A DNA stretch of 64,000 nt from Escherichia coli. Its GTDB lineage: Bacteria; Pseudomonadota; Gammaproteobacteria; Enterobacterales; Enterobacteriaceae. The position numbers and the translations under genes were made by a program. The DNA lies in NCBI RefSeq assembly GCF_009931435.1, contig NZ_CP043414.1. One strand, written 5' to 3'. Under the pieces are notes generated by a model. That model was not told where the DNA came from. It made no database searches and worked only from the letters and a program-made list of their open reading frames with translations. Shown one piece after another: positions 1-46,051 of this stretch. Every line of letters begins with the position of its first letter. Position 1 is the first letter of the stretch.

Positions 1-1405
1 AACGCATCGCCCTGTTCAAAACGCGCCCGCCCAGACATTCCCTTTTGGGCAATCATCTCTTGCCCCTGTGCAACATTTAACTCACTGTAATCACGTAACA
101 AAATATCGCTTACGGCAGGCTCGTTTGCCAGCGCATCCAGTACATAGCCCCCATGCCCTGCGGCAATGTCAACCACGCGGACGGCTAAACCATTGGCGTG
201 GAGATCGGCAACGGCTTGTTTCATCAGCATTTGTAAATGGGCTTTGCGCTGGCGAATACCGCGCCAGCCAACACTGTTCAGGTAGATTTTGTCGATAAAA
301 CGCCCGAATGCGTTACTGCCTTGAGGTTGATTTTGATAGACATAATCCAGCGAACTGCCTGAATCAAAGCCGGTGCTCATTCCGAGATGCAGGCCCGCAG
401 ATTGCGCCCCGAACAGTTTCATCGCCTTTCGCATAAAGCGATACGCCAAATCAACTGGCGATAATGGCACGGGTCCACCAGAAAGGAGCCGCCATCGATC
501 CGCAGATGGTCCTGTGCGGTCTTCATGCTGATAATCAAATTTTTGCGACTTGTTAGCATATAAGCGACTAATAAAGCTTTGCATTTTTTCAAATGCCTGT
601 GCCCTGTTCTCTTCACCCAACGTGTCGTGATAAAAGCCCGGCAGCAGATGCAGCTCTTTCAGAGGGCTACGTAATCTCTGATAAAAATCAATCTGCGGTT
701 GGCGATGTACCACATAGTCATCGCCCGATATCAGTAGTTGCGTAGGGAGCGTAATCGCCGCCGCATCGCTAACAATACGTTCAGACGTTTTATAGAGATC
801 GAGCAAGATATTGACGGCAATCGCCCGTGTGATCAGCGGATCATTATTGAAACTCGCTACCCGTTCCCAATCGTGGGTCAAATAGCGTCCTTTCACATAG
901 GAATTAATAAAAAACAGACCACGCAGACGATGCCATAACGCCAGCGCAGGACGTGCCAGCGGCACATACAATTTAACCTTAAAGGCCGGAGAAGCCAGCA
1001 CCAGCCCGCGAATAGCAGGCGCATAATCATGAACCCATGTGGCAACCAGCACTGCGCCGACGCTTTGCGCGATCACAACCACCTCTTCCAGCCCGACCTG
1101 GCTGTCGCTGGCAGCAAAACGGACAAATTCATCGACATCCTGCACTGAACGCGCAAGAGATGGGCTATAACCACGCGGCCCCGAAGTTTGTCCATGCCCT
1201 CGGGCATCCCAGGCATAAAAAGTAGTATCTGGCATCGCCAGTTCATCAACGATATGTTGTAGACGACCAGAATGTTCATGACCGCGATGAAATAAGACGA
1301 TGACCTTTTTAACCCCTGGCTGTAAAGCGGGCCAGTGCCGATAAAACAACGCTGTATTATCACTGGCTGTAAAAAAACATTCCCCAGGGATGCGTGAATT
1401 TTCCA
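1..1405 (-). CDS. ynbC: YnbC-like bifunctional alpha/beta-hydrolase / methyltransferase; 3' end lies beyond the window edge
   Basis: Minus-strand frame is open from ATG (rc) at 1403-1405 to position 1. Translation begins MENSRIPGECFFTASDNTALFYRHWPALQPGVKKVIVLFHRGHEHSGR, matching the YnbC N-terminus as I recall it. Absent from the ORF track only because no stop falls inside the window. Confidence 0.85.
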
Positions 1406-1421
1406 TTTTCTCTATTTTCCT

Positions 1422-2318
1422 TCAGTAACAGCAGTAGCGAATAAAATAAAAAAATACCGGAGCGGTGAAAATTAATGAGTCAATCCTGTCAAGGAGTCCG
1501 CCATGTCCTGGTAATAGTTTTCCACTATCTTTAACACCAATATCTCGTTTGATGGCTGACATCACTACATCGCCGCAAAAACCACTAATACCAATTAACA
1601 AACCCGCTAATAATGCCTGTAATGTATCTAGCGGTGTCAGCAACGGTCCAATAATCAGTGACGCAATCATGGTGGTGATTACGCCGCCCATCAGACCTTC
1701 CAATGTTTTTCCCGGGCTGACTTTAGGGACCACTTTTCTTCTGCCGCAGGATTTCCCCCATAAATACTGTGCAATATCGTTTGACTCGGTTAATGCCAAA
1801 AGAAATAACACCAGTAACGCCCCGACCTGGATATTTATGGTTGGCAACATTAATAACCAGGCGGCATGACTCAAGGCGAAAACGGTCATTATCCAGCCCC
1901 AAAAAATGGCGCTCACGGTATGCAGAAAACCGGAGAGGTCACCCACAAAAACTTGCCAGGTGGCTAATATCAGAAACCCAGCCAAAGGTATGAATAACAG
2001 AAACAGCTCAAAGCAATTAAAACCGATAAGCAAATAGTTAAGAGGAATAACCCAATATAACCAACGCGGAAAATGAACGGATATAAGCGTACAATATTCT
2101 TTCAATGCCATAAAACTTATCAGCGCAAAAAACGTCAATGTCATCCAGTGTGGACCTGAAATGACCAGTGAAAAACAAATGACGATGCCCCACCAGGTAC
2201 GAATACGTAATGTAACTTCATCCCCTTTTCTCTTTGGTAACCGCCATACCAGAAAACGGTTTATCAGCGTTGCTAAAATTAACAACACGAAAAGTATTGC
2301 CAGAGATTTTTCCAGCAT
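1422..2318 (-). CDS. ynbB: CDP-diglyceride synthetase (CdsA) paralog, integral membrane
   Basis: 298-aa ORF, multiple hydrophobic helices, C-terminal CdsA-type motif region (KRDIGVKDSGKLLPGHGGLLDRIDS). Start ATG overlaps the ynbA stop (TAATG at 2316-2320). Confidence 0.9.
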   Translation of the reverse strand: MLEKSLAILFVLLILATLINRFLVWRLPKRKGDEVTLRIRTWWGIVICFSLVISGPHWMTLTFFALISFMALKEYCTLISVHFPRWLYWVIPLNYLLIGFNCFELFLLFIPLAGFLILATWQVFVGDLSGFLHTVSAIFWGWIMTVFALSHAAWLLMLPTINIQVGALLVLFLLALTESNDIAQYLWGKSCGRRKVVPKVSPGKTLEGLMGGVITTMIASLIIGPLLTPLDTLQALLAGLLIGISGFCGDVVMSAIKRDIGVKDSGKLLPGHGGLLDRIDSLIFTAPVFFYFIRYCCY

Positions 2319-2923
2319 TACTTTTCAGCACTCATAAAAAGCACGCTCCGACTACGATTAATCGCAGTCCAGATAAGCAGAATTGAAGCAATGCTCCATA
2401 AAAGATTATTCCATTGCATCCACTGTGGATAAATGGCAACGGCCAGCCCCCACAACCCAAATATTAACGCACGATCGCTTTTGCCAAATGGACCGGCATA
2501 ACTGCGAATACCGTTAATCGTCTGCGCGAGTAAACCGCAAAACTCAGTCAATATGGTGCAAAATAACATGAGTATTACGAGTGATGCGTTACTTTCCGGT
2601 AAAAATAAAAACGGTAAATAAAGCGCAATATCGGAAATAACATCGCCAGTTTCATTCAAAATCGCCCCAAGACGTGTTTGCTGATTACACTCACGCGCCA
2701 TCATGCCATCCAGCGCATTGAGTGCCATACGGACAAAAAGCACGATGGGCAATAGCAAAAAGAGGATGGGGCGTGCCACCAACATCAACAGCAATCCGGT
2801 AAGAAGAGAAAGCGCCAGTGCAGCAAGAGTGATGTGATTCGCTGTAACATGGTGCTTATTAAGCCAAAACATCGTCGGCCTTAACAGCGACTGAAAGAGC
2901 GGTTTTATCTGGTAGAGCGTCAT
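2318..2923 (-). CDS. ynbA: CDP-alcohol phosphatidyltransferase family membrane protein
   Basis: CDP-OH phosphotransferase signature D-G-x2-A-R...G-x3-D-x3-D (LDGMMARECNQQTRLGAILNETGDVISD). Native start taken as MTLYQIKPLF; the track ORF starts 2 codons earlier at 2929. Confidence 0.88.
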   Translation of the reverse strand: MTLYQIKPLFQSLLRPTMFWLNKHHVTANHITLAALALSLLTGLLLMLVARPILFLLLPIVLFVRMALNALDGMMARECNQQTRLGAILNETGDVISDIALYLPFLFLPESNASLVILMLFCTILTEFCGLLAQTINGIRSYAGPFGKSDRALIFGLWGLAVAIYPQWMQWNNLLWSIASILLIWTAINRSRSVLFMSAEK

Positions 2924-3093
2924 TATCAATCCTTGATAATTCGGTTTGCGCTATGGTGCATCAATTCCCCTGACGGAGATATCGCAACACGCCGCTTCAT
3001 TAAAAATTCAGAATATATCAAGGTATTGGGGACTCACCGTCAGGAATGATTATCCCCAATAGATCAAGTGGTTAAAAATTATTACGCTGTTAT

Positions 3094-5406
3094 TCAATAC
3101 AACTCATCAAGTTTTCTCATCGCTTGTTCCCGTATTGCGCGCGTCTTACCGTTAAGCGCCAGCTGGCGAACTAAATCCAGTTCAGGGTTAACAAGCTCTA
3201 ACGCCAGCAAAGGATCACGTTTCAGCCTCGCCTTCAATACATCAACTGGAAAGCGGGGATTATTCATCGCCACAATCCACCACTCGGGATCAATTTCTGC
3301 CGCCAGTGCCGCAGGGGGGGTGTGGCGGTTGCTAAGTGCGCCGAACTTGAAAAATGTGAGATTGCTTTTCGCCAGTGTACTCCACCATATACGATCCGGT
3401 TGTTTTGCCAGTACATCCAGTTGTGCTAACGCATCGGGGTCGAGTGCATAATAAACACGTAACGCTTCGTTAACCTGCGCACGGGAACTGTTTTCCTGCC
3501 TCAGAAAAAACTTCGCCCAAATATCATTGCGTGGCGTGTTTTGCTGTAATTCCTTGAGAACAACAGCGGGTAAATCATCCCAACTAATTAATGCACTCTC
3601 TAAAAAGTCCCAGTCGTCCGAACGTATCAGAGAGGTGGCATTTAATAGCATCTGGTCATCAACTTCACCGTAGCTGATAAGCTCAGACAAAATCATATCA
3701 GCGCTGGTTTCATATGCATCTGAATCTGCTTTGGGATTATTTTTCCGATGCGATAAAGCACGTTGCCAAATTTTTTGTTTCATCGACGTGCTCAGATACT
3801 GATTTTTCGCCAGATTACTCCACCCCTCAGGATCGTTGAAACGTGTCAATAACCGTTGTAGAGCAGCGTCAGAGTGAATTACCTGCATATCCCGACAGCA
3901 AAAGTAGGCAGGGGATTTTTTCTCCATCCTTTTAACAAAATTAAACTGTAAGTTATCTGGCAATGCTAAAAATAACACACGTATTAGATCATCGTCATTC
4001 TCGAATTTTTGGTATAAATATACTGCTATTTTGTCACTCTCTTGTGGCGTCATCCGCAACAATTGACCATGGTGTTTCATCTCTGCCAGTTTGAACGCTA
4101 ATCTTGTGACAACATCGTTTGATGAATCGTTCGCCAACTGCATTGCCTGATTGTAGGTGAGTTGTCCTCCAGCACCGACTTGACGAATAGAGGAATCATC
4201 ACTGCGGATATAGCCATCAATAATGGATTCGGGCAATAACCACGCATCTTTATAAAGCTCCTGAATGATCATATCCCAATCTCTTTTCGCCAGAGTCATG
4301 ACGATATCCAGAGGGAGATTTTCACGTAGCGCAAGATTCAACGGACCGACACCATCAGGTAGATGACTCATTCGCGTCATTATTTCGACAGAGAGCGGTT
4401 CACGGTCGAGCAACCCCAGAACAACAGGCTGGTAACCTAATTGCTGATCGGTCAACTCCAGAATCTCATTGTCAGGCATATATCTCGCCATACTTGCAAT
4501 CGTTTTTTCATCATTGCTATTAATAAGTTGTTTGCGTAGGTTAGCTGAAATTCCTTTAAGCCTTGGGAGAGTTCGCATTATGGCAAGATCAAATGTCGCA
4601 ATATCTCGTCCTTCAAATGCAGCAACGTTGCCTTCATCCAGAATTTGCAATTCCTGCACTAACTCAGGAGAAGGCTTAGGGCGAAACAGCGCTTCTTTTT
4701 TCATCTGATTACAGACATTCCCTGCCATGCGAATATTGCTTCGCTTAAAAATTTCTTTCAGAGCATCTTCATCATTTATTAGACCCCAATAATATGCATC
4801 AGGATTTATTATCATCAGCGCTTTTTTGACATTTTCAGTGTCATTTTTATCACTCGCACGGACCATGAATTCACTATTTGTCGAAGACGCAACAACAGGT
4901 GCAATTATGTCATTGATAAATATCCCACGCGCATTAATACTCCCCTTAATCGTAGACGGATTATCGTAATATGAATCGATAAATACCAGTCCACTTGCAT
5001 TTATCGAACCGGTAATTAACAGTGGTGAATCCGTAACTATATTCGTTGCCGTCACGTTACCGAGAATAACCCATGGATTAGAAAGAGAGAAAGTGGAAAT
5101 ATTACCTTTGACTGTCAAATTGCCAAGAACAATCAATTTTTGATTACTCTCTATATTACCTTCTACCACTAAATCGCCACGATGCACTTTCCAGTCCGAT
5201 GCAGATAAACCGAAGGGGACAAGATTCACGCTACTGTTGATAGCTTGTTCAACTTGCTGTTTATCTTCAGCGGTAGCCGCAGATAAAAATGGATTAATAT
5301 CAACTGCATTTGCAACACATCGAAGTTCCGCCTGTACTGGAAGACTCAGGATAAACAGGGGAAGTAAACGTATCCAGCCGCAAATCCTGGCCTTAAACAT
5401 ATGCAC
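3094..5406 (-). CDS. ydbD: YdbD, large exported protein of unknown function
   Basis: 770-aa ORF with N-terminal signal-peptide-like segment (MHMFKARICGWIRLLPLFILSLPVQA). Position between ynbA and ydbC matches E. coli ydbD. No catalytic motif recognised. Confidence 0.85.
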   Translation of the reverse strand: MHMFKARICGWIRLLPLFILSLPVQAELRCVANAVDINPFLSAATAEDKQQVEQAINSSVNLVPFGLSASDWKVHRGDLVVEGNIESNQKLIVLGNLTVKGNISTFSLSNPWVILGNVTATNIVTDSPLLITGSINASGLVFIDSYYDNPSTIKGSINARGIFINDIIAPVVASSTNSEFMVRASDKNDTENVKKALMIINPDAYYWGLINDEDALKEIFKRSNIRMAGNVCNQMKKEALFRPKPSPELVQELQILDEGNVAAFEGRDIATFDLAIMRTLPRLKGISANLRKQLINSNDEKTIASMARYMPDNEILELTDQQLGYQPVVLGLLDREPLSVEIMTRMSHLPDGVGPLNLALRENLPLDIVMTLAKRDWDMIIQELYKDAWLLPESIIDGYIRSDDSSIRQVGAGGQLTYNQAMQLANDSSNDVVTRLAFKLAEMKHHGQLLRMTPQESDKIAVYLYQKFENDDDLIRVLFLALPDNLQFNFVKRMEKKSPAYFCCRDMQVIHSDAALQRLLTRFNDPEGWSNLAKNQYLSTSMKQKIWQRALSHRKNNPKADSDAYETSADMILSELISYGEVDDQMLLNATSLIRSDDWDFLESALISWDDLPAVVLKELQQNTPRNDIWAKFFLRQENSSRAQVNEALRVYYALDPDALAQLDVLAKQPDRIWWSTLAKSNLTFFKFGALSNRHTPPAALAAEIDPEWWIVAMNNPRFPVDVLKARLKRDPLLALELVNPELDLVRQLALNGKTRAIREQAMRKLDELY

Positions 5407-6531: not shown

Positions 6532-9500
6532 TTAGAACGTTTTCTTGAAGTTCAGCATCACGCCTTTATCGCTGATACCATCCTCTTTCCAGTGGTAAGC
6601 ATCCAGATTCAGCGAACTTTCTTTGCTGCTGTACTTCACGCCGACGCTTGCCAGACTGTTGATGCCGCCGCCCTTCTGCCCATCATCGACATTAAAGTGC
6701 TGGCTGCCTGCGCCTGCCAGGCTTGCCGTGCGCTGGCTCTTGCTGTAGCTGAGGTTCGGCCCACCTTCCAGCGTGGCGTTCGCACTCCAGCCGTCTTTCC
6801 CTGCGTAGTCCAGCTTCAGCCCGACGATGCTGTCCACCGCCGTTTCGCTGCCGCTGTTCATGCTCAGGTTAAAGTCTCCGGCATTGCGCTCCTGATAGTC
6901 GCCTTCCAGCGTGTGACGCAGTTTCACACCCGCATATGGCGTGATTTTCAGCCCTTCGCGCGGTTCAAAGGTTTTCGCCCCTTCGCTGCGGAACTCCAGG
7001 TACTGTTGTTTCACATTCGTGTCTGCCGTCTTACTGATGTCGCCGTAAGCCACCGAACGGCTGCTGTCCAGTTGGTGAATATCGTAGCGCAGCGCGTTAT
7101 TCCAGCTCATACCGTTGTCAAAGGACATCTGATGCTTCAGGCCAAAGAACTGGCTGTAGCCGCCTGTAACACCATTATCACCCGCTTTCTGCGCACCATC
7201 GCCGTCCAGACGGGCGATACCGTACTCCAGGCTCATGGTCTGGTTTTCGCTCAGGTCGAGGGTTTTGCGCAGCGCCAGCATGTCGTACTCGGTATTATTC
7301 CCCAGCTCTGCACGCGGATCGCCTTTCGCCACCACGTTAAATGCCAGACCGTTGCCCATCTTCGGTGCTGCGTCTGCCAGCATACTAAAGCGATTGCTTA
7401 ACACACGCGCTTCGCGGAATACCGTGGTCGCCTGGCTACCGCTAATTTGCTTAAGTGCGCTGTTCAGCTCTGCAGTGGTGCCGACGTTCAGACTGGTATA
7501 CAGCTCATTGTTGGTGTAACCCGCATCCAGCGCTTTTGCCACGTCATTCACTGAGGCATCCGTCGCCACATCGGTGTAGGCTTTTTTGCTCATGGTCACG
7601 TCAACGTTGCCGCTGGCGTCGGTACTGCCTGTCGCCTGCCAGACAACAGATGTCGAAGTGATCGCTTGCGCATCGGTCAGGTTGCTGCCTTGCACCACAT
7701 CATCAAAGCTGGCGGTTTTGTCCGCCGTTCCCGCCGCAAAAGCAGTGTTGATCTCCACGCCTTTCATACTGGCGTTATTGACCATCAGCTTACCAGCGCT
7801 ACCATCGGCGTTCGTCCCCACCACGTAACCATTGAGGTTGTTCATGCCATCGTTGCGGCTAACGGAAGAAGAATGACTGTCGTCGTATGGCGTAATGGTG
7901 GGTTCTTCCGGCGCGGTAAAGTCGACATAGTGTACTTCCGTACCGTCTCCCCCTTCACCACTGCCCTCCATCACCGTGCCAGATTGTTTAATTAATCCGG
8001 AACCATTCACGCTGTCGTCAATATAAACAGTGCCGTTGTTAACAATATGACCATTGCTCCCGAGCTTGCTGAAGGCATATGAATTGCTGGCATATATATT
8101 GATGGTGCCGTTATTCTCAATCACCGCATCAGCCGTGGCATCGGATTCCAGTTGCATCCCTACCATGCCTGTCCTGGTAGTTCCTTGCGTGCCAACGTTA
8201 ATGGTGCCGTTGTTGATCATTTTGGCTTTACCGTGCGCCGACATCGCCACATTACTATTTTTGTCGATATTAATAATGCCGTCGTTTATTGCCTTGCTGG
8301 CCGTGTTTGATGTCAGGATCTGCCCGTTGATGAAGCCAGACTGGCCATTATAGAACGTATGCCCATCACCACCGGTGCTAATTCTCATGTCACCTTCTAC
8401 TGTCCCCCAATTATTAAAATGTCCTGTCCACAGCGCATTCGTCGCCACCGTTGCCACACTGCCTTCCAGATTGTTGAAGGTGCCACCTTTATCAACCGAT
8501 GCATTATTTACGGTACCAGCATTATTAAAGGTAGAGGCTGCAGCAAAAGTTATTTTCTCTACTTTTCCACCGGCCTGATTATTCATTACGGCAGACCCGG
8601 AAGAACCTTTCCAGGCGTTCACCGTTCCGGTGTTATAAAAATTGCTGGCCCACTGGTCAACCGTGTTGATGCTGCCTGAGTTGTGAATAACCGATCCTGC
8701 AACAGTCGTTCCGACTTGCCCGCTCACCGTACCTTCGTTAGTGAACACGCCGCCATCCACAGAAACAGTTTTTGTCGTGCCGTGGTTGGTGTATTCCCCA
8801 CCGGTTGCGATATCAACCTCAATAATACTGCCCGTGGTTTCATTGACCAGATGACCAAAGTCAGCCACGGTGACAGGTCCCCCGGTGACCGTACCCGTGT
8901 TTGTTACCAGGGTTTCGGCGGTTGCCGTGATATCAGTAGTACCGCCATATGAATACAGGTTAAGCGTTTCCCCGTCAGCCGAAATAATGTCACCATTTCT
9001 CCAGCTTAATGAAACAAACCCGTCAGTCGGGTTATAGGCGTTATTGTCCTGGCATTTCCCAAAAGTACAGATGGATCCGTAATTAACGATAGTCCCGCTG
9101 CCATCGTTATAGAACGCCTGCCCGTTTTCAGCATTAATATTGATGATGCCCGTCTGATCATTAATCGCAGTGGCACCATTGTAAACAGCCATGCCGACCA
9201 ATTTATTTGGCCCCAGCGTATCATCATCATTTTCATTTACTTCCAGATTTATAGTTCCCTGGTTAATAATAATGTTACCTGGCTTCATCGCAGCCATACC
9301 GGCACCGGAATTATAGAGTGTTATTTCACCACCCTGCTGGTTAATGGCGGTAGAATTAACGCTGGCACCAGAACTGTCTGTACCCACAGCCATCCCGACA
9401 GCATAATCTTTGGCGCTGTCATGAGCGATATTGGACGCCAGACTGGAAGTATCGTTTTCATCAACCCATAATGCGTCAATGAAAATCTTACCCATATTGT

Positions 9501-23688: not shown

Positions 23689-23694
23689 CACTAA

Positions 23695-23720
23695 CGCCCG
23701 CACATTGCTGCGGGCTTTTT
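23695..23720 (+). terminator. Rho-independent terminator after uspF
   Basis: Hairpin gcccgcacattgctgcgggc followed by ttttt. Confidence 0.8.
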
Positions 23721-23863
23721 GATTCATTTCGCAAATGTGCTGACATTTTCCCCTCTAATCCGTACCATACACGCCACAGTTTTTATATCAGATTTCTTAT
23801 GCTGGGCGTTCCGGCATGACGCATACTCTTCTGATGCCATATAACGAATTGAGTCGCTTTTAA

Positions 23864-44008: not shown

Positions 44009-46051
44009 ATGGATGATAAACAAATTACGGTCTGGCTTAAACACAATTGCTGTTCAACGGACATTCCTGCCATTGCCGAGGCACTAACGAACCATGCAGA
44101 ATGGCTTTTAGAGCTAGCGCCAGATCCTATTGATCAAGGTAGTTCATGCTTACCGCCGGCAGCTGCAGCTGGTATTTTTCTTGGCGCAGCGGCGATGGTT
44201 CACTGCGGCGAGGCCAGTGGTGCAGAAACCTGGCTCGAAGCAGCCATTACTGATTACCATTTCTTTAATCCAAACGGATATAGTTCATGGAGAGGCAGTA
44301 CGCCTGTTTTTACAGCAATATCGCGTTACCCGGCATTAAAAATGGTGTTATTTAACGCCGCTTGCGCAATGGAAGACTGGAATAAAGCATCCGCTGTTCT
44401 TGAATCGCTTTTCAATGCCAGCGATGTCCCGAAAGATAACCCTGTCGCCCCCAATTTTACCCCTTATGCGCTGAAAGATATTATCGCGGATAACCTCCCG
44501 TTAGGGCCTGCTTATTATGATGAAACCTGGTTGCTGGCAAAACAAGCGTGGTTAATTAATGCGGGCGTTCTGGATGAGCGAACATGCAATACCTGGAAGC
44601 AATATACCCGCCATTTGCGCCATTTGATCCACAATGCACAGTTTTCCGATGCGATCTCTTTTGTACGCAGTAAAAAAGAACCATTAAATCATATCCATAC
44701 CTACTCAGACTTTTATCTCTATGCGATTGGTTTATTTTCTTCTACTGATCAGCTAAGTGAAGCGCTAACCTGGGTAAAACAATTAATCCGCAACAATGAT
44801 GGTCATTTCCATGATCTTTTCGTTTCAACTGGCGCAAAGCGCCGCATAAAGCCTGAACTTAGTACCTTGCTGAATAATCTCTTGCACAGCGCAGAGTTTC
44901 AGGCGTTGCAGGATAAATATCTCACCGTCGGACATGATGTTGTGCATTCTGGTCCCTTCATGTCACTTTATGAAAAGGTTCTTGGCGGTAAGTCCCGAAA
45001 GCGCTGCGCGATTAGTCGAAAATTAATCTCGCCCGGCGAAGCGGTTTATGAATATCGTCAGCTGGATAGTGTGGAATATATTGCAGCGAAAGCGGCCTTT
45101 CAGACATCTGAGCTAAATAATATCGCCCACCGGCATCATAATGATAGTTATCAGTGGCATGAATTTGCCGCCCAATGGCCTCGTCGGGGTTCACTTTCTC
45201 ACCCAGATATTGCCCGTTATTTGTTTGAGCGCCAGGAAGGAAAATGCTTTGATGCCGCAGAGTTTATACCACTGATTGCGGAACCGTTTGTCTTTCCGAT
45301 GCGTTTCATATGGGTTGCCGGGTTGTCCTTTGAATTACATCAGTATCCGGATGCCTATTTCGTAAATGACAATATGGCGGGTGAATTTGTTAATCTCTGC
45401 TGGATGGCTATGAAATGCGGACATGCTGGCGACATTTTCAAACAACTGGCCCACGAGCCGCATGACGTTGCTGACCCTATTTACGCCATGCTCGCCACGT
45501 TTGACCGCTCTGATTGCCGTAGCGCCGCCGCCGCGCACTTTGGACAACCGGAACTACCGGAAATAATGGCACTGGCTTTCAGTTCGAGGTTATCGCTCGA
45601 CAGCGTACTTACCATCGCTGAGTTTGGTAAAAATCAGCCGCGATTTTCACATGCGCTAGCAACGGCCCTCCTGCGTTACAACCTGCACATCTACTCAAAC
45701 TATATGCCGCAGGTTAACTGGTACCTTCAGGGGCTGGAACACTATGCTTTGGCAAAAGGCGGTCAACTTTTAAATTTCTTTGTGCATATTCCAGAACAAA
45801 TTCCCGTTCTGGCGACCATGCTGGAACATGGCGTATTAGTGCGTGGGATCGGTGAAGGTGCCTATGATGGTTATGATAATTCAGCAAATTCATTTCATCA
45901 TGCCGCCGTGATGCACTGCCTTGAGCACGCGCCGGAAAAAGTCCGCTACTGGATGGAAACACCCTGGATTCAGAACTATTTAGTGAATGCGCCGCTGCGT
46001 CAAACGGCGCGCCATGTGGAAGCCTGGCATAAAAAGTTTGGCATCAAATGA
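44009..46051 (+). CDS. Hypothetical protein of about 680 aa, no recognisable domain; accessory gene in the tpx-tyrR spacer
   Basis: Uninterrupted 2-kb ORF. SD ggag at 43994-43997, 11 nt before ATG 44009 (MDDKQITVWLKHNCC...); in-frame GTG 43997 and ATG 44000 are alternative starts. No signal peptide, no obvious TM segments, no Walker/HTH/nuclease motif that I can identify. Rare codons AGA and CTA occur in frame. Confidence 0.75.
   Translation: MDDKQITVWLKHNCCSTDIPAIAEALTNHAEWLLELAPDPIDQGSSCLPPAAAAGIFLGAAAMVHCGEASGAETWLEAAITDYHFFNPNGYSSWRGSTPVFTAISRYPALKMVLFNAACAMEDWNKASAVLESLFNASDVPKDNPVAPNFTPYALKDIIADNLPLGPAYYDETWLLAKQAWLINAGVLDERTCNTWKQYTRHLRHLIHNAQFSDAISFVRSKKEPLNHIHTYSDFYLYAIGLFSSTDQLSEALTWVKQLIRNNDGHFHDLFVSTGAKRRIKPELSTLLNNLLHSAEFQALQDKYLTVGHDVVHSGPFMSLYEKVLGGKSRKRCAISRKLISPGEAVYEYRQLDSVEYIAAKAAFQTSELNNIAHRHHNDSYQWHEFAAQWPRRGSLSHPDIARYLFERQEGKCFDAAEFIPLIAEPFVFPMRFIWVAGLSFELHQYPDAYFVNDNMAGEFVNLCWMAMKCGHAGDIFKQLAHEPHDVADPIYAMLATFDRSDCRSAAAAHFGQPELPEIMALAFSSRLSLDSVLTIAEFGKNQPRFSHALATALLRYNLHIYSNYMPQVNWYLQGLEHYALAKGGQLLNFFVHIPEQIPVLATMLEHGVLVRGIGEGAYDGYDNSANSFHHAAVMHCLEHAPEKVRYWMETPWIQNYLVNAPLRQTARHVEAWHKKFGIK

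What the first reader, a model, noticed from the sequence alone, without database searches (positions are those of the whole stretch)
1..2929. ynbA-ynbB-ynbC: cryptic CDP-alcohol lipid-synthesis-like operon with translational coupling
Three co-directional genes encode a CDP-alcohol phosphatidyltransferase paralog (ynbA), a CDP-diglyceride synthetase paralog (ynbB) and a hydrolase/methyltransferase fusion (ynbC, continuing beyond the window). The ynbA stop and ynbB start overlap as TAATG (2316-2320), which indicates coupled translation. The combination resembles a complete head-group activation and transfer pathway, distinct from the housekeeping cdsA/pgsA genes, and its lipid product is, as far as I know, not established. 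ydbD, a large exported protein of unknown function, lies immediately downstream on the same strand.
Basis: partly seen in the sequence, partly recalled or inferred. Interest (0 to 1): 0.45.

Follow-up and report, generated by a model that had tools for sequence, protein, structure and literature searches.

The report
Known E. coli ynbABCD lipid operon
This is the already annotated ynbA-ynbB-ynbC(-ynbD) operon of Escherichia coli, a set of spare membrane-lipid enzymes whose product is still unknown; it turns out to be a cut-down copy of a six-gene cassette that also travels on plasmids.

Summary
All three genes lie on the minus strand: ynbA 2923..2318, ynbB 2318..1422, and ynbC 1406..<1, which is cut by the window edge. 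The TAATG stop/start overlap is at 2316-2320, read as CATTA on the + strand. ydbD is upstream of ynbA, not downstream, and accompanies the cluster only in Escherichia.

The locus is the known E. coli ynbABCD operon. Published work links YnbB, a CdsA paralogue that makes CDP-diacylglycerol in vitro, to the glycolipid MPIase. It also maps a BglJ-RcsB-activated promoter upstream of ynbA and finds no function for YnbD. I found nothing on the function of YnbA or YnbC.

New here:
- YnbA has the fold of phosphatidylinositol-phosphate synthases, but the whole family replaces two of the four signature aspartates (D1, D3) with asparagine.
- In most other bacteria the cluster has six genes: ynbA, ynbB, an acyltransferase, ynbC, ynbD and a small membrane protein. 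Escherichia lost two of them. The full cassette sits on IncF and IncK plasmids.
- The tight ynbA/ynbB junction is conserved, and dN/dS of 0.17-0.30 indicates maintained genes.

Verdict: a known locus of ordinary architecture with an open biochemical question. Interest is modest.

The parts
1..1406 (-). ynbC, N-terminal 468 of 585 codons (cut by the window edge). It fuses a monoacylglycerol-lipase-like alpha/beta hydrolase to a class I SAM methyltransferase.
   Evidence: Pfam Hydrolase_4 228 bits and Methyltransf_20 264 bits on the part in the window, 501 bits on the full length. Closest solved relatives are monoacylglycerol lipases, E 1e-15. RefSeq annotation.
1407..1421 (-). 15-nt ynbB-ynbC spacer, AGGAAAATAGAGAAA on the coding strand, carrying an AGGA Shine-Dalgarno sequence for ynbC.
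   Evidence: Read directly from the sequence. In other genera a 213-aa acyltransferase gene sits at this position.
1422..2318 (-). ynbB, 298 aa, a CDP-diacylglycerol synthase paralogue of CdsA.
   Evidence: PF01148 234 bits over residues 37-295. CdsA equivalog 105 bits against a cut-off of 385. Literature: makes CDP-DAG in vitro and raises MPIase when overproduced (PMC7018664, PMC6362211).
2316..2320 (-). TAATG: the ynbA stop (TAA) and the ynbB start (ATG) share one base.
   Evidence: The + strand reads CATTA. The same junction occurs in K-12. A 1-nt overlap is found in 30 of 62 related loci.
2318..2923 (-). ynbA, 201 aa, a CDP-alcohol phosphatidyltransferase-fold membrane enzyme. The mechanical ORF extends to a TTG at 2929.
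   Evidence: PF01066 36.9 bits. AlphaFold model with pLDDT 95.7. Best folds are PIP synthases, TM 0.72-0.76. The N-terminus MTLYQ is conserved in all homologues, which supports the ATG at 2923.
2630..2719 (-). Codons N69 to D98 of ynbA: the variant signature N-x2-D-G-x2-A-R-x8-G-x3-N-E-x2-D-x3-D, with Asn in place of the first and third aspartates of the family motif.
   Evidence: Alignment to M. tuberculosis PgsA1 (6h53). The NDND pattern occurs in 240 of 245 motif-bearing homologues. N69, N90 and E91 are at least 90% conserved in 89 sequences down to 37% identity.
2924..3093 (-). ydbD-ynbA spacer (39% G+C) holding the activator-dependent ynbA promoter.
   Evidence: The promoter and BglJ-RcsB activation were mapped in K-12 (PMC3950696). 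The spacer is nearly identical to K-12. No sigma-70 consensus site was found.
3008..3015 (-). TATTCTGA, the only match in the spacer to the published BglJ-RcsB core wwTTCykA, 85 nt upstream of the ATG.
   Evidence: Pattern count: 1 observed against 0.03 expected from the window-wide frequency. The motif is taken from PMC3950696. Assigning this match as the binding site is an inference.

Best explanation
The region is the known, conditionally expressed ynbABCD operon of E. coli. It encodes an accessory membrane-lipid pathway separate from cdsA/pgsA. It is the trimmed Escherichia version of a six-gene cassette: ynbA, ynbB, a PlsC/Aas-like acyltransferase, ynbC, ynbD and a small membrane protein.

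Likely working:
1. Transcription starts at a weak promoter in the ydbD-ynbA spacer that needs an activator, BglJ-RcsB. This was shown in K-12, and the sequence is conserved here.
2. ynbB is translated by ribosomes finishing ynbA at the TAATG overlap (inferred).
3. YnbB converts phosphatidate plus CTP to CDP-diacylglycerol (reported in vitro).
4. YnbA transfers the phosphatidyl group from CDP-DAG to an anionic, probably phosphorylated, small acceptor. This is inferred from three things: its PIP-synthase fold, the retained catalytic base D94, and the retained phosphate-clamp arginines R151 and R190. Its metal site is altered, with N69 and N90 in place of Asp.
5. YnbD, with PAP2 and Cys-X5-Arg phosphatase domains, removes a phosphate from the product (inferred).
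6. YnbC, a lipase-like domain fused to a SAM methyltransferase, deacylates and/or methylates the product (inferred).

The final lipid is unknown.
For: Identity of the locus:
- 100% match to RefSeq-annotated ynbC, ynbB, ynbA and ydbD.

Operon-like packing:
- 1-nt overlap between ynbA and ynbB, a 15-nt gap before ynbC and a 13-nt gap before ynbD. No terminator-like signal above the shuffled background.

Distinct from housekeeping genes:
- NCBIfam equivalog scores are far below cut-offs.
- YnbB cannot replace CdsA for phospholipid synthesis (PMC6362211).
- YnbD does not complement C55-PP or PGP phosphatase mutants (PMC7413402).

YnbA chemistry:
- Confident model with pLDDT 95.7.
- Nearest folds are PIP synthases, IPCT-DIPPS and AF2299 (TM 0.72-0.77), better than PgsA at 0.55.
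- Mapping onto MtPgsA1 gives D71->D72, D93->D94, R155->R151 and R195->R190 (the last by extending the alignment, which stops short of it), but D68->N69, D89->N90, A90->E91 and R94->V95.

The pattern is family-wide, so it is constrained rather than decaying.

Functional unit:
- The genes stay together across gamma-, beta- and alpha-proteobacteria, with the pairs [ynbB + acyltransferase] and [ynbC + ynbD + small protein] gained or lost as blocks.
- The six genes form a transposase-flanked cassette on plasmids.

The genes are maintained:
- dN/dS is 0.17-0.30 against K-12.
- The locus is present in 4598 of 5426 complete E. coli genomes.
Against: - No experiment shows co-transcription or coupling at this junction, and none was run here.
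- YnbA lacks two of the four metal-binding aspartates that mutational and structural work treats as defining. It could be inactive or could do different chemistry.
- E. coli has lost two genes of the cassette, so its version may not make the ancestral product.
- About 15% of complete E. coli genomes give no match. Others carry IS insertions or internal deletions.
- dN/dS is two to four times that of the neighbouring pdxI.
- No conserved neighbour gene points to an acceptor.
Confidence: 0.6

Rival explanations
1. The operon, or at least ynbB with ynbA, is a back-up route to the essential glycolipid MPIase. YnbB supplies CDP-DAG, and a transferase joins it to GlcNAc-1-phosphate to give GlcNAc-PP-DAG ('compound I'). 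The literature ascribes that transferase step to CdsA/YnbB themselves; here it is conceivably YnbA.
For: - YnbB overproduction raises MPIase about as much as CdsA overproduction does. Loss of ynbB worsens precursor accumulation in the Tam41p background (PMC6362211).
- According to the reviews, YnbB restores MPIase but not phospholipid synthesis and is cold-induced (PMC7018664; PMC11413397).
- All those strains and crude membranes still carried ynbA.
- A less acidic YnbA metal site (N69, N90) with a retained phosphate clamp would suit a phosphate nucleophile. This is an inference.
Against: - A ynbB knockout alone leaves the MPIase level unchanged.
- The operon is absent or broken in hundreds of E. 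coli genomes and is decaying in Salmonella (L027), although MPIase is reported to be essential.
- The cassette occurs in Snodgrassella, Pseudomonas, Shinella/Sinorhizobium and on a Pseudanabaena plasmid. From general knowledge, these taxa lack the enterobacterial common antigen sugars that build MPIase.
- No paper in the searched library tests YnbA, YnbC or YnbD for MPIase synthesis.
Confidence: 0.2
2. In E. coli the operon is an evolutionary remnant. After losing the acyltransferase and the small membrane protein it makes no distinct lipid, and it persists only because it is rarely expressed and costs little.
For: - Two cassette genes are missing in Escherichia, and E. whittamii has also lost ynbD.
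- There are deletions and an IS3 insertion within E. coli.
- 828 of 5426 genomes give no match.
- dN/dS is higher than for pdxI.
- There is no growth phenotype for ynbB or ynbD knockouts (PMC6362211, PMC7413402).
- The promoter needs BglJ, which is itself H-NS-silenced (PMC3950696).
Against: - All four ORFs are intact, with dN/dS of 0.17-0.30 across about 4% DNA divergence.
- The catalytic motifs of YnbA, YnbC and YnbD are all retained (the YnbC motifs were read directly from the translation).
- Other lineages independently keep acyltransferase-less versions of the cluster (L023, L047, L049, L061).
- YnbB is active when expressed (PMC7018664).
Confidence: 0.15
3. YnbB and YnbA are simply redundant isoenzymes of CdsA and PgsA that make ordinary phosphatidylglycerol phosphate.
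For: They share Pfam families with CdsA and PgsA. YnbD carries phosphatase domains, as a PGP phosphatase would.
Against: - The YnbA score against the PgsA models is 28 and 20 bits, against cut-offs of 109 and 304.
- Its structural match to PgsA is poor, TM 0.55 against 0.76 for PIP synthases.
- YnbB does not complement delta-cdsA for phospholipid synthesis.
- YnbD does not rescue the triple PGP-phosphatase mutant.
- The hydrolase-methyltransferase and the altered metal site would have no role in this scheme.
Confidence: 0.05

Closest known systems
Phosphatidylinositol-phosphate synthases and archaetidylinositol-phosphate synthases (class I CDP-alcohol phosphotransferases, e.g. M. tuberculosis PgsA1, PDB 6h53/6h59)
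   Same: - Six-helix fold, TM 0.72-0.76.
- Best NCBIfam similarity of any named family, 74.5 and 49.6 bits.
- Retained: D2, Gly, Ala-Arg, the catalytic base D4, and the arginines that clamp the acceptor phosphate (R155/R195 -> R151/R190; R190 by extrapolation).
- The pathway logic is the same: a synthase followed by a phosphatase.
   Different: - Scores are far below the equivalog cut-offs of 180 and 170 bits.
- The metal ligands D1 and D3 are Asn.
- The residue after D3 is an invariant Glu instead of Ala.
- The Arg/Lys after D4, which is essential for inositol-phosphate binding, is Val.
- From general knowledge, E. coli makes no inositol phosphate de novo.
CdsA / PgsA / Pgp housekeeping route to phosphatidylglycerol in E. 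coli
   Same: The same order of reaction types: CDP-DAG synthase, then a CDP-alcohol transferase, then a phosphatase. YnbB makes CDP-DAG in vitro (PMC7018664).
   Different: - The enzymes are paralogues, not orthologues.
- There is no cross-complementation for YnbB or YnbD.
- The ynb set has an extra lipase-methyltransferase and, outside Escherichia, an extra acyltransferase and a small membrane protein.
- The genes are clustered, mobile and patchily distributed.
MPIase glycolipid biosynthesis (CdsA/YnbB model of Nishiyama and co-workers)
   Same: ynbB is one of the two genes experimentally tied to MPIase levels. The proposed first intermediate, GlcNAc-PP-DAG, derives from CDP-DAG.
   Different: The published model does not involve ynbA, ynbC or ynbD. 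The cluster's distribution reaches taxa that lack the MPIase/ECA sugars. A ynbB knockout alone has no effect on MPIase.
Translationally coupled gene pairs with overlapping stop and start codons (UAAUG or AUGA type)
   Same: A 1-nt TAATG overlap on one strand, with only a weak Shine-Dalgarno sequence upstream in E. coli.
   Different: Nothing unusual. From general knowledge this is one of the commonest junction types in bacterial operons, and coupling has not been measured here.

Membership tests
CDP-alcohol phosphotransferase superfamily (Pfam PF01066), for YnbA | Profile match above Pfam's gathering score | tested here: met
   36.9 bits against a cut-off of 22, covering residues 29-177.
CDP-alcohol phosphotransferase superfamily (Pfam PF01066), for YnbA | Six-transmembrane-helix fold of the solved family members | tested here: met
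   AlphaFold model with pLDDT 95.7. Foldseek probability 1.00 and TM 0.70-0.77 to PIP synthases, IPCT-DIPPS and AF2299.
CDP-alcohol phosphotransferase superfamily (Pfam PF01066), for YnbA | Complete signature D1xxD2GxxAR(x8)GxxxD3xxxD4, with four aspartates at a di-nuclear metal site | tested here: not met
   YnbA has N69 at D1 and N90 at D3. D72, G73, A76, R77, G86 and D94 are present. NDND occurs in 240 of 245 homologues. The roles of the aspartates are taken from PMC6506517.
Phosphatidylinositol-phosphate / archaetidylinositol-phosphate synthase equivalogs (NCBIfam NF045883, NF040950), for YnbA | Score above the curated equivalog cut-off | tested here: not met
   49.6 against 170 bits, and 74.5 against 180 bits.
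Phosphatidylinositol-phosphate / archaetidylinositol-phosphate synthase equivalogs (NCBIfam NF045883, NF040950), for YnbA | Basic residue directly after D4 (R94 of MtPgsA1), required for inositol-phosphate binding | tested here: not met
   The aligned residue is V95, hydrophobic in the enterobacterial orthologue alignment.
Phosphatidylinositol-phosphate / archaetidylinositol-phosphate synthase equivalogs (NCBIfam NF045883, NF040950), for YnbA | Arginine pair that binds the acceptor's phosphate (R155 and R195 of MtPgsA1) | tested here: inconclusive
   R155 aligns with R151, part of the near-invariant GKSDRA motif. R195 maps by extrapolation to R190, which is at least 90% conserved, but the HMMER alignment stops at residue 187.
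PgsA (CDP-DAG:glycerol-3-phosphate phosphatidyltransferase), for YnbA | Equivalog score, and closest structural similarity | tested here: not met
   27.9 against 109 bits and 19.8 against 304 bits. TM 0.53-0.55 to PgsA structures 7drk/7drj, weaker than to PIP synthases.
CDP-diacylglycerol synthase family (PF01148 / CdsA), for YnbB | Family profile match | tested here: met
   234 bits over residues 37-295.
CDP-diacylglycerol synthase family (PF01148 / CdsA), for YnbB | Orthology to CdsA (NCBIfam equivalog PRK11624) | tested here: not met
   104.7 against 385 bits, and only the C-terminal half (160-291) aligns. This agrees with the published 'paralogue' description.
CDP-diacylglycerol synthase family (PF01148 / CdsA), for YnbB | CDP-DAG synthase activity | not testable with these tools
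   Reported in vitro by Sato et al. 2019, as summarised in PMC7018664. The primary paper is not held.
Operon with translational coupling | Same strand, no room for a promoter or terminator between genes, and overlapping stop and start codons | tested here: met
   1-nt overlap between ynbA and ynbB, then 15-nt and 13-nt gaps. No promoter or terminator signal above the shuffled background. The junction is conserved.
Operon with translational coupling | One transcript, and dependence of ynbB translation on ynbA translation | not testable with these tools
   This needs RT-PCR or RNA-seq and a nonsense-mutation/reporter test. The literature only lists 'ynbAB' or treats ynbC as an operon member.
PAP2 lipid phosphatase plus dual-specificity phosphatase, for YnbD (outside the window) | PAP2 catalytic motifs and the Cys-X5-Arg loop | tested here: met
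   DSPc matched in 10 of 10 members, PAP2_3 in 8 of 10 and PAP2 in 6 of 10. Invariant residues include R106-P107, P131-S132-x-H134, H174...D178, and C376-x5-R382 with D346.
MPIase biosynthetic genes | Effect of the gene on the MPIase level | not testable with these tools
   Published for ynbB only, and only under overproduction or in sensitised backgrounds. I found nothing for ynbA, ynbC or ynbD.

The most novel reading that the evidence does not exclude
The YnbA family is a distinct branch of CDP-alcohol phosphotransferases with a re-built, less acidic metal site (Asn-Asp-Asn-Asp plus an invariant Glu). Together with its dedicated acyltransferase, CDP-DAG synthase, lipase-methyltransferase, double phosphatase and small membrane protein, it forms a mobile six-gene cassette that makes a membrane lipid class not yet described in proteobacteria. 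One possibility is a pyrophosphate-linked or head-group-methylated glycerolipid. E. coli K-12 carries a reduced version whose YnbA could be the unrecognised transferase behind GlcNAc-PP-diacylglycerol.
Probability: 0.3. Interest if true: 0.65.

Novelty: already known. Interest (0 to 1): 0.3.

Why it matters
E. coli's lipid map is regarded as nearly complete, yet four adjacent lipid-enzyme genes still have no product assigned. Identifying that product would close one of the remaining gaps. It would also test the contested claim that CdsA and YnbB themselves build the anchor of the glycolipid MPIase. The comparative results make this directly testable. The full six-gene cassette is available on natural plasmids, one of them next to mcr-10. 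The family-wide Asn-for-Asp changes in YnbA give clear mutants to make. As a genome-scan finding, though, the locus itself is a known and annotated operon with ordinary architecture.

Tried and rejected
- **ydbD as a partner.** Rejected. It is found next to the cluster only in E. coli and E. whittamii (2 of 81 loci), and it is separated from ynbA by the ynbA promoter.
- **YnbA as an orthologue of PIP/AIP synthase, PgsA or PssA.** Rejected on NCBIfam cut-offs and on the missing R94 equivalent. An older EcoCyc label, diacylglycerol cholinephosphotransferase, was already withdrawn (PMC3781023).
- **Neighbour genes that would name the head-group.** Inspecting loci from Buttiauxella, Pseudomonas, Chitinilyticum, Limnobaculum, Avibacterium and Afifella, plus three plasmids, found nothing conserved outside the six genes. 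The DegT/HAD/Gfo/SemiSWEET genes on one plasmid are not conserved elsewhere.
- **Sigma-70 promoter and intrinsic terminator scan.** Nothing above the shuffled background.
- **Literature on the cassette or on Methyltransf_20/PF12147.** No hits. The 'Lipocone' paper was irrelevant.
- **Primary papers on YnbB.** BBRC 2019, FEMS Lett 2023 and JBC 2019 are not held.
- **Source strain.** I first took the window to be strain R32_14_1F. It is identical over 1-3100 but only 98.4% identical over 64 kb, so the window comes from a close relative.


Full report
**What is in the sequence**

All features lie on the minus strand.
- An ORF at 2318..2929 starts at a TTG. The ATG at 2923, which begins the conserved MTLYQIKP N-terminus, gives the 201-aa YnbA.
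- An ORF at 1422..2318 encodes the 298-aa YnbB.
- A frame opening at 1406 runs off the window start. It holds 468 of the 585 codons of YnbC.

The + strand at 2316-2320 reads CATTA, i.e. TAATG on the coding strand, so the ynbA stop and the ynbB start share one base. ynbB and ynbC are separated by 15 nt containing AGGA. ynbD follows ynbC outside the window.

The first 3100 bases are 100% identical to E. coli R32_14_1F (NZ_CP074749.1). RefSeq annotates ynbC, ynbB, ynbA and ydbD there. Over the whole 64 kb the identity is only 98.4%, so the window comes from a close relative.

**Protein families**

| Protein | Result |
|---|---|
| YnbA | PF01066, 36.9 bits |
| YnbB | PF01148, 234 bits |
| YnbC | Hydrolase_4 plus Methyltransf_20; the hydrolase half is closest to monoacylglycerol lipases |
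| YnbD | Dual-specificity phosphatase domain with HCALGLSRS, behind a membrane PAP2-type domain with invariant RP, PSxH and HxxxD motifs |

None of these proteins reaches an NCBIfam equivalog cut-off. YnbB scores 105 bits against 385 for CdsA. YnbA scores 74.5, 49.6 and 27.9 bits against cut-offs of 180, 170 and 109 for archaetidylinositol-phosphate synthase, PIP synthase and PgsA respectively. They are paralogues of the housekeeping enzymes, not copies.

**What is already published**

- YnbB is described as a CdsA paralogue. Its overproduction raises the glycolipid MPIase, and it cannot replace CdsA for bulk phospholipid. Its knockout alone has no effect (PMC6362211).
- Reviews add that YnbB makes CDP-DAG in vitro, restores MPIase but not phospholipid synthesis, and is cold-induced (PMC7018664; PMC11413397; bioRxiv 10.64898/2026.06.05.730299).
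- The ynbA promoter was mapped and shown to be activated by BglJ-RcsB through a site centred 65-68 bases upstream of the start (PMC3950696).
- YnbD is called a fourth putative PAP2 of E. coli with no function. It does not complement C55-PP or PGP phosphatase mutants (PMC7413402).
- A ynbC transposon insertion gave a strain-specific polyphosphate phenotype (PMC2435150).
- An early EcoCyc label for YnbA, cholinephosphotransferase, was withdrawn (PMC3781023).
- I found no paper on the function of YnbA or YnbC, and none on the cluster as a whole.

So the locus is known, and the statement that its product is not established is only partly up to date.

**The junction and the promoter**

The tight ynbA/ynbB junction is conserved. 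It is a 1-nt overlap (TAATG or TGATG) in 30 of 62 related loci, and every junction but one lies between an 11-nt overlap and an 18-nt gap. K-12 has TAATG as well. Many genera have a GAGG about 10 nt upstream, inside ynbA. E. coli has only a weak match, so re-initiation by terminating ribosomes is plausible. That remains an inference, and this junction type is common.

The 170-nt ydbD-ynbA spacer has 39% G+C and no sigma-70 consensus site. This fits an activator-dependent promoter. The spacer contains one match, TATTCTGA at 3008-3015, to the published core wwTTCykA, against 0.03 expected. It is almost identical to the K-12 spacer.

**YnbA is an unusual member of its superfamily**

An AlphaFold model built on 89 homologues is confident (pLDDT 95.7). 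Its best structural matches are PIP synthases from M. kansasii, Renibacterium and M. tuberculosis, IPCT-DIPPS and AF2299 (TM 0.70-0.77). PgsA structures match less well (TM 0.53-0.55).

The HMMER alignment to M. tuberculosis PgsA1, read against that enzyme's structural paper (PMC6506517), gives this mapping:

| MtPgsA1 | Role | YnbA |
|---|---|---|
| D68 (D1) | Metal ligand | N69 |
| D71 (D2) | Metal ligand | D72 |
| D89 (D3) | Bridging metal ligand | N90 |
| A90 | Residue after D3 | E91 |
| D93 (D4) | Catalytic base | D94 |
| R94 | Essential for inositol-phosphate binding | V95 |
| R155 | Phosphate clamp | R151 |
| R195 | Phosphate clamp | about R190 (by extrapolation) |

The N-D-N-D pattern is not a strain peculiarity. 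It occurs in 240 of 245 motif-bearing homologues, including representatives of 50%-identity clusters down to about 37% identity. N69, N90, E91 and the GKSDRA motif are at least 90% conserved in an 89-sequence alignment.

YnbA therefore keeps the base and the anion clamp of enzymes that use phosphorylated acceptors. It has a re-modelled, less acidic metal site and lacks the inositol-phosphate determinant. I infer a phosphatidyl transfer from CDP-DAG to an anionic acceptor other than inositol phosphate. The acceptor cannot be named from sequence.

**The E. coli operon is a reduced form of a six-gene cassette**

A scan of one genome per species found 282 loci, of which the best 80 were kept. BLAST of the flanks shows that most Enterobacterales carry six genes in this order:
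1. ynbA
2. ynbB
3. A 213-aa PlsC/Aas-like acyltransferase (PF01553)
4. ynbC
5. ynbD
6. A roughly 133-aa membrane protein with no family

The cluster often sits next to azoR, as in E. coli. Snodgrassella and Chitinilyticum also carry the cluster. Pseudomonadales have the order A-C-D followed by ynbB and the acyltransferase, with the small protein in between in three of the four loci. Alpha-proteobacteria have ynbA divergent from C-D-acyltransferase-B.

The genes are gained and lost in blocks:
- ynbB and the acyltransferase are missing together in L013, L057, L060, L062, L064 and L066.
- ynbC, ynbD and the small protein are absent in L063, L068, L069, L071, L074 and L076, which keep ynbA, the acyltransferase and ynbB.

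Escherichia lacks the acyltransferase and the small protein, and E. whittamii also lacks ynbD. ydbD accompanies the cluster only in Escherichia.

The complete cassette, flanked by transposases, lies on three plasmids:
- An IncFIB/FII plasmid of Citrobacter.
- A conjugative IncK2/Z plasmid of E. coli, whose PLSDB gene table lists only the first four genes.
- An IncFII plasmid of Enterobacter asburiae, 2.6 kb from mcr-10.1. No ynbD is listed in its gene table.

No other neighbour is conserved, so nothing points to the head-group.

**Is the E. coli version alive?**

Against K-12 (95.7% DNA identity), dN/dS is as follows:

| Gene | dN/dS |
|---|---|
| ynbA | 0.17 |
| ynbB | 0.30 |
| ynbC | 0.25 |
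| ynbD | 0.20 |
| pdxI | 0.08 |
| ydbD | 0.22 |

This indicates purifying selection, though more relaxed than for pdxI.

The region is found in 4598 of 5426 complete E. coli genomes, and 4255 of them cover at least 80% of it. Some strains have an IS3 in ynbA or internal deletions. S. enterica subsp. arizonae keeps only ynbA and a truncated ynbB next to azoR. The operon is maintained but dispensable.

**Weighing the explanations**

- **Best reading (0.6).** A known, activator-dependent operon encodes an accessory lipid pathway: CDP-DAG supply by YnbB, phosphatidyl transfer by YnbA, dephosphorylation by YnbD, and deacylation and/or methylation by YnbC. The product is unknown.
- **MPIase back-up (0.2).** This has experimental support for YnbB only. 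It is weakened by the operon's absence from many E. coli genomes and by the cassette's presence in bacteria that, from general knowledge, do not make the ECA sugars of MPIase. However, every published strain and membrane preparation still contained ynbA, so a role for YnbA in forming GlcNAc-PP-DAG has not been excluded.
- **Functionless remnant (0.15).** Supported by the gene losses, but opposed by the dN/dS values and the retained catalytic motifs.
- **Simple redundancy with CdsA/PgsA (0.05).** Contradicted by scores, structure and published complementation tests.

**Verdict**

The locus is an already known E. coli operon of ordinary architecture, so novelty is low and interest modest. The open and testable points are the acceptor and product of the Asn-variant YnbA family and the role of the mobile six-gene cassette.

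Noticed in passing
L086 9001-14587 (Citrobacter plasmid NZ_CP053574.1); L085 9001-12918; L087 6701-12287: The ynb-type lipid cassette lies on IncF and IncK2/Z plasmids, flanked by transposases. All six genes are annotated on the Citrobacter plasmid. In the Enterobacter asburiae plasmid the cassette is 2.6 kb from the colistin-resistance gene mcr-10.1.
   Followed up: partly
window 6532-12024 (-): An intact 1830-aa autotransporter (ydbA). In K-12/BW25113 the same gene is annotated as an incomplete pseudogene.
   Followed up: partly
window 12025-12670 and 23689-23863: Compared with the K-12 map (from memory, and PMC4951805 for the first point), the paa/fea/tynA block is missing between ydbL and ydbA. 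No Rac prophage lies between uspF and ttcA.
   Followed up: no
window 44009-46051 (+): A 680-aa ORF between tpx and tyrR, annotated 'hypothetical protein' in the near-identical RefSeq genome. It has no Pfam and no PADLOC match.
   Followed up: partly
window 1-64000 vs NZ_CP074749.1 2591337-2655336: The window is 100% identical to strain R32_14_1F over its first 3.1 kb but only 98.4% identical overall (1034 mismatches, 9 gaps). The ynb end may therefore have a different history from the rest.
   Followed up: partly
L001 9452-9466 and L084 6942-6966 (ynbC/ynbD junction, outside the window): RefSeq places the ynbD start differently in two E. coli records. In K-12 it overlaps ynbC by 11 nt. In R32_14_1F it is a TTG 13 nt after the ynbC stop.
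   Followed up: no
L020, L021, L022 (Serratia sp. DD3): Three contigs of one assembly each carry the six-gene cluster, with identical match statistics to the E. coli proteins. This could be a real triplication or an assembly artefact.
   Followed up: no
L001 9466-10755, residues 208-426 of YnbD: The C-terminal half of YnbD matches NCBIfam PRK12361, a 546-aa 'hypothetical protein' model, at 93.9 bits. A related phosphatase module therefore exists in another uncharacterised architecture.
   Followed up: no
window 3094-5400 (-), ydbD: YdbD has a signal-peptide-like N-terminus and a C-terminal DUF2773. RefSeq calls it a 'DUF2773 domain-containing bactofilin'. Among the 81 related loci it occurs next to the cluster only in Escherichia.
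   Followed up: partly
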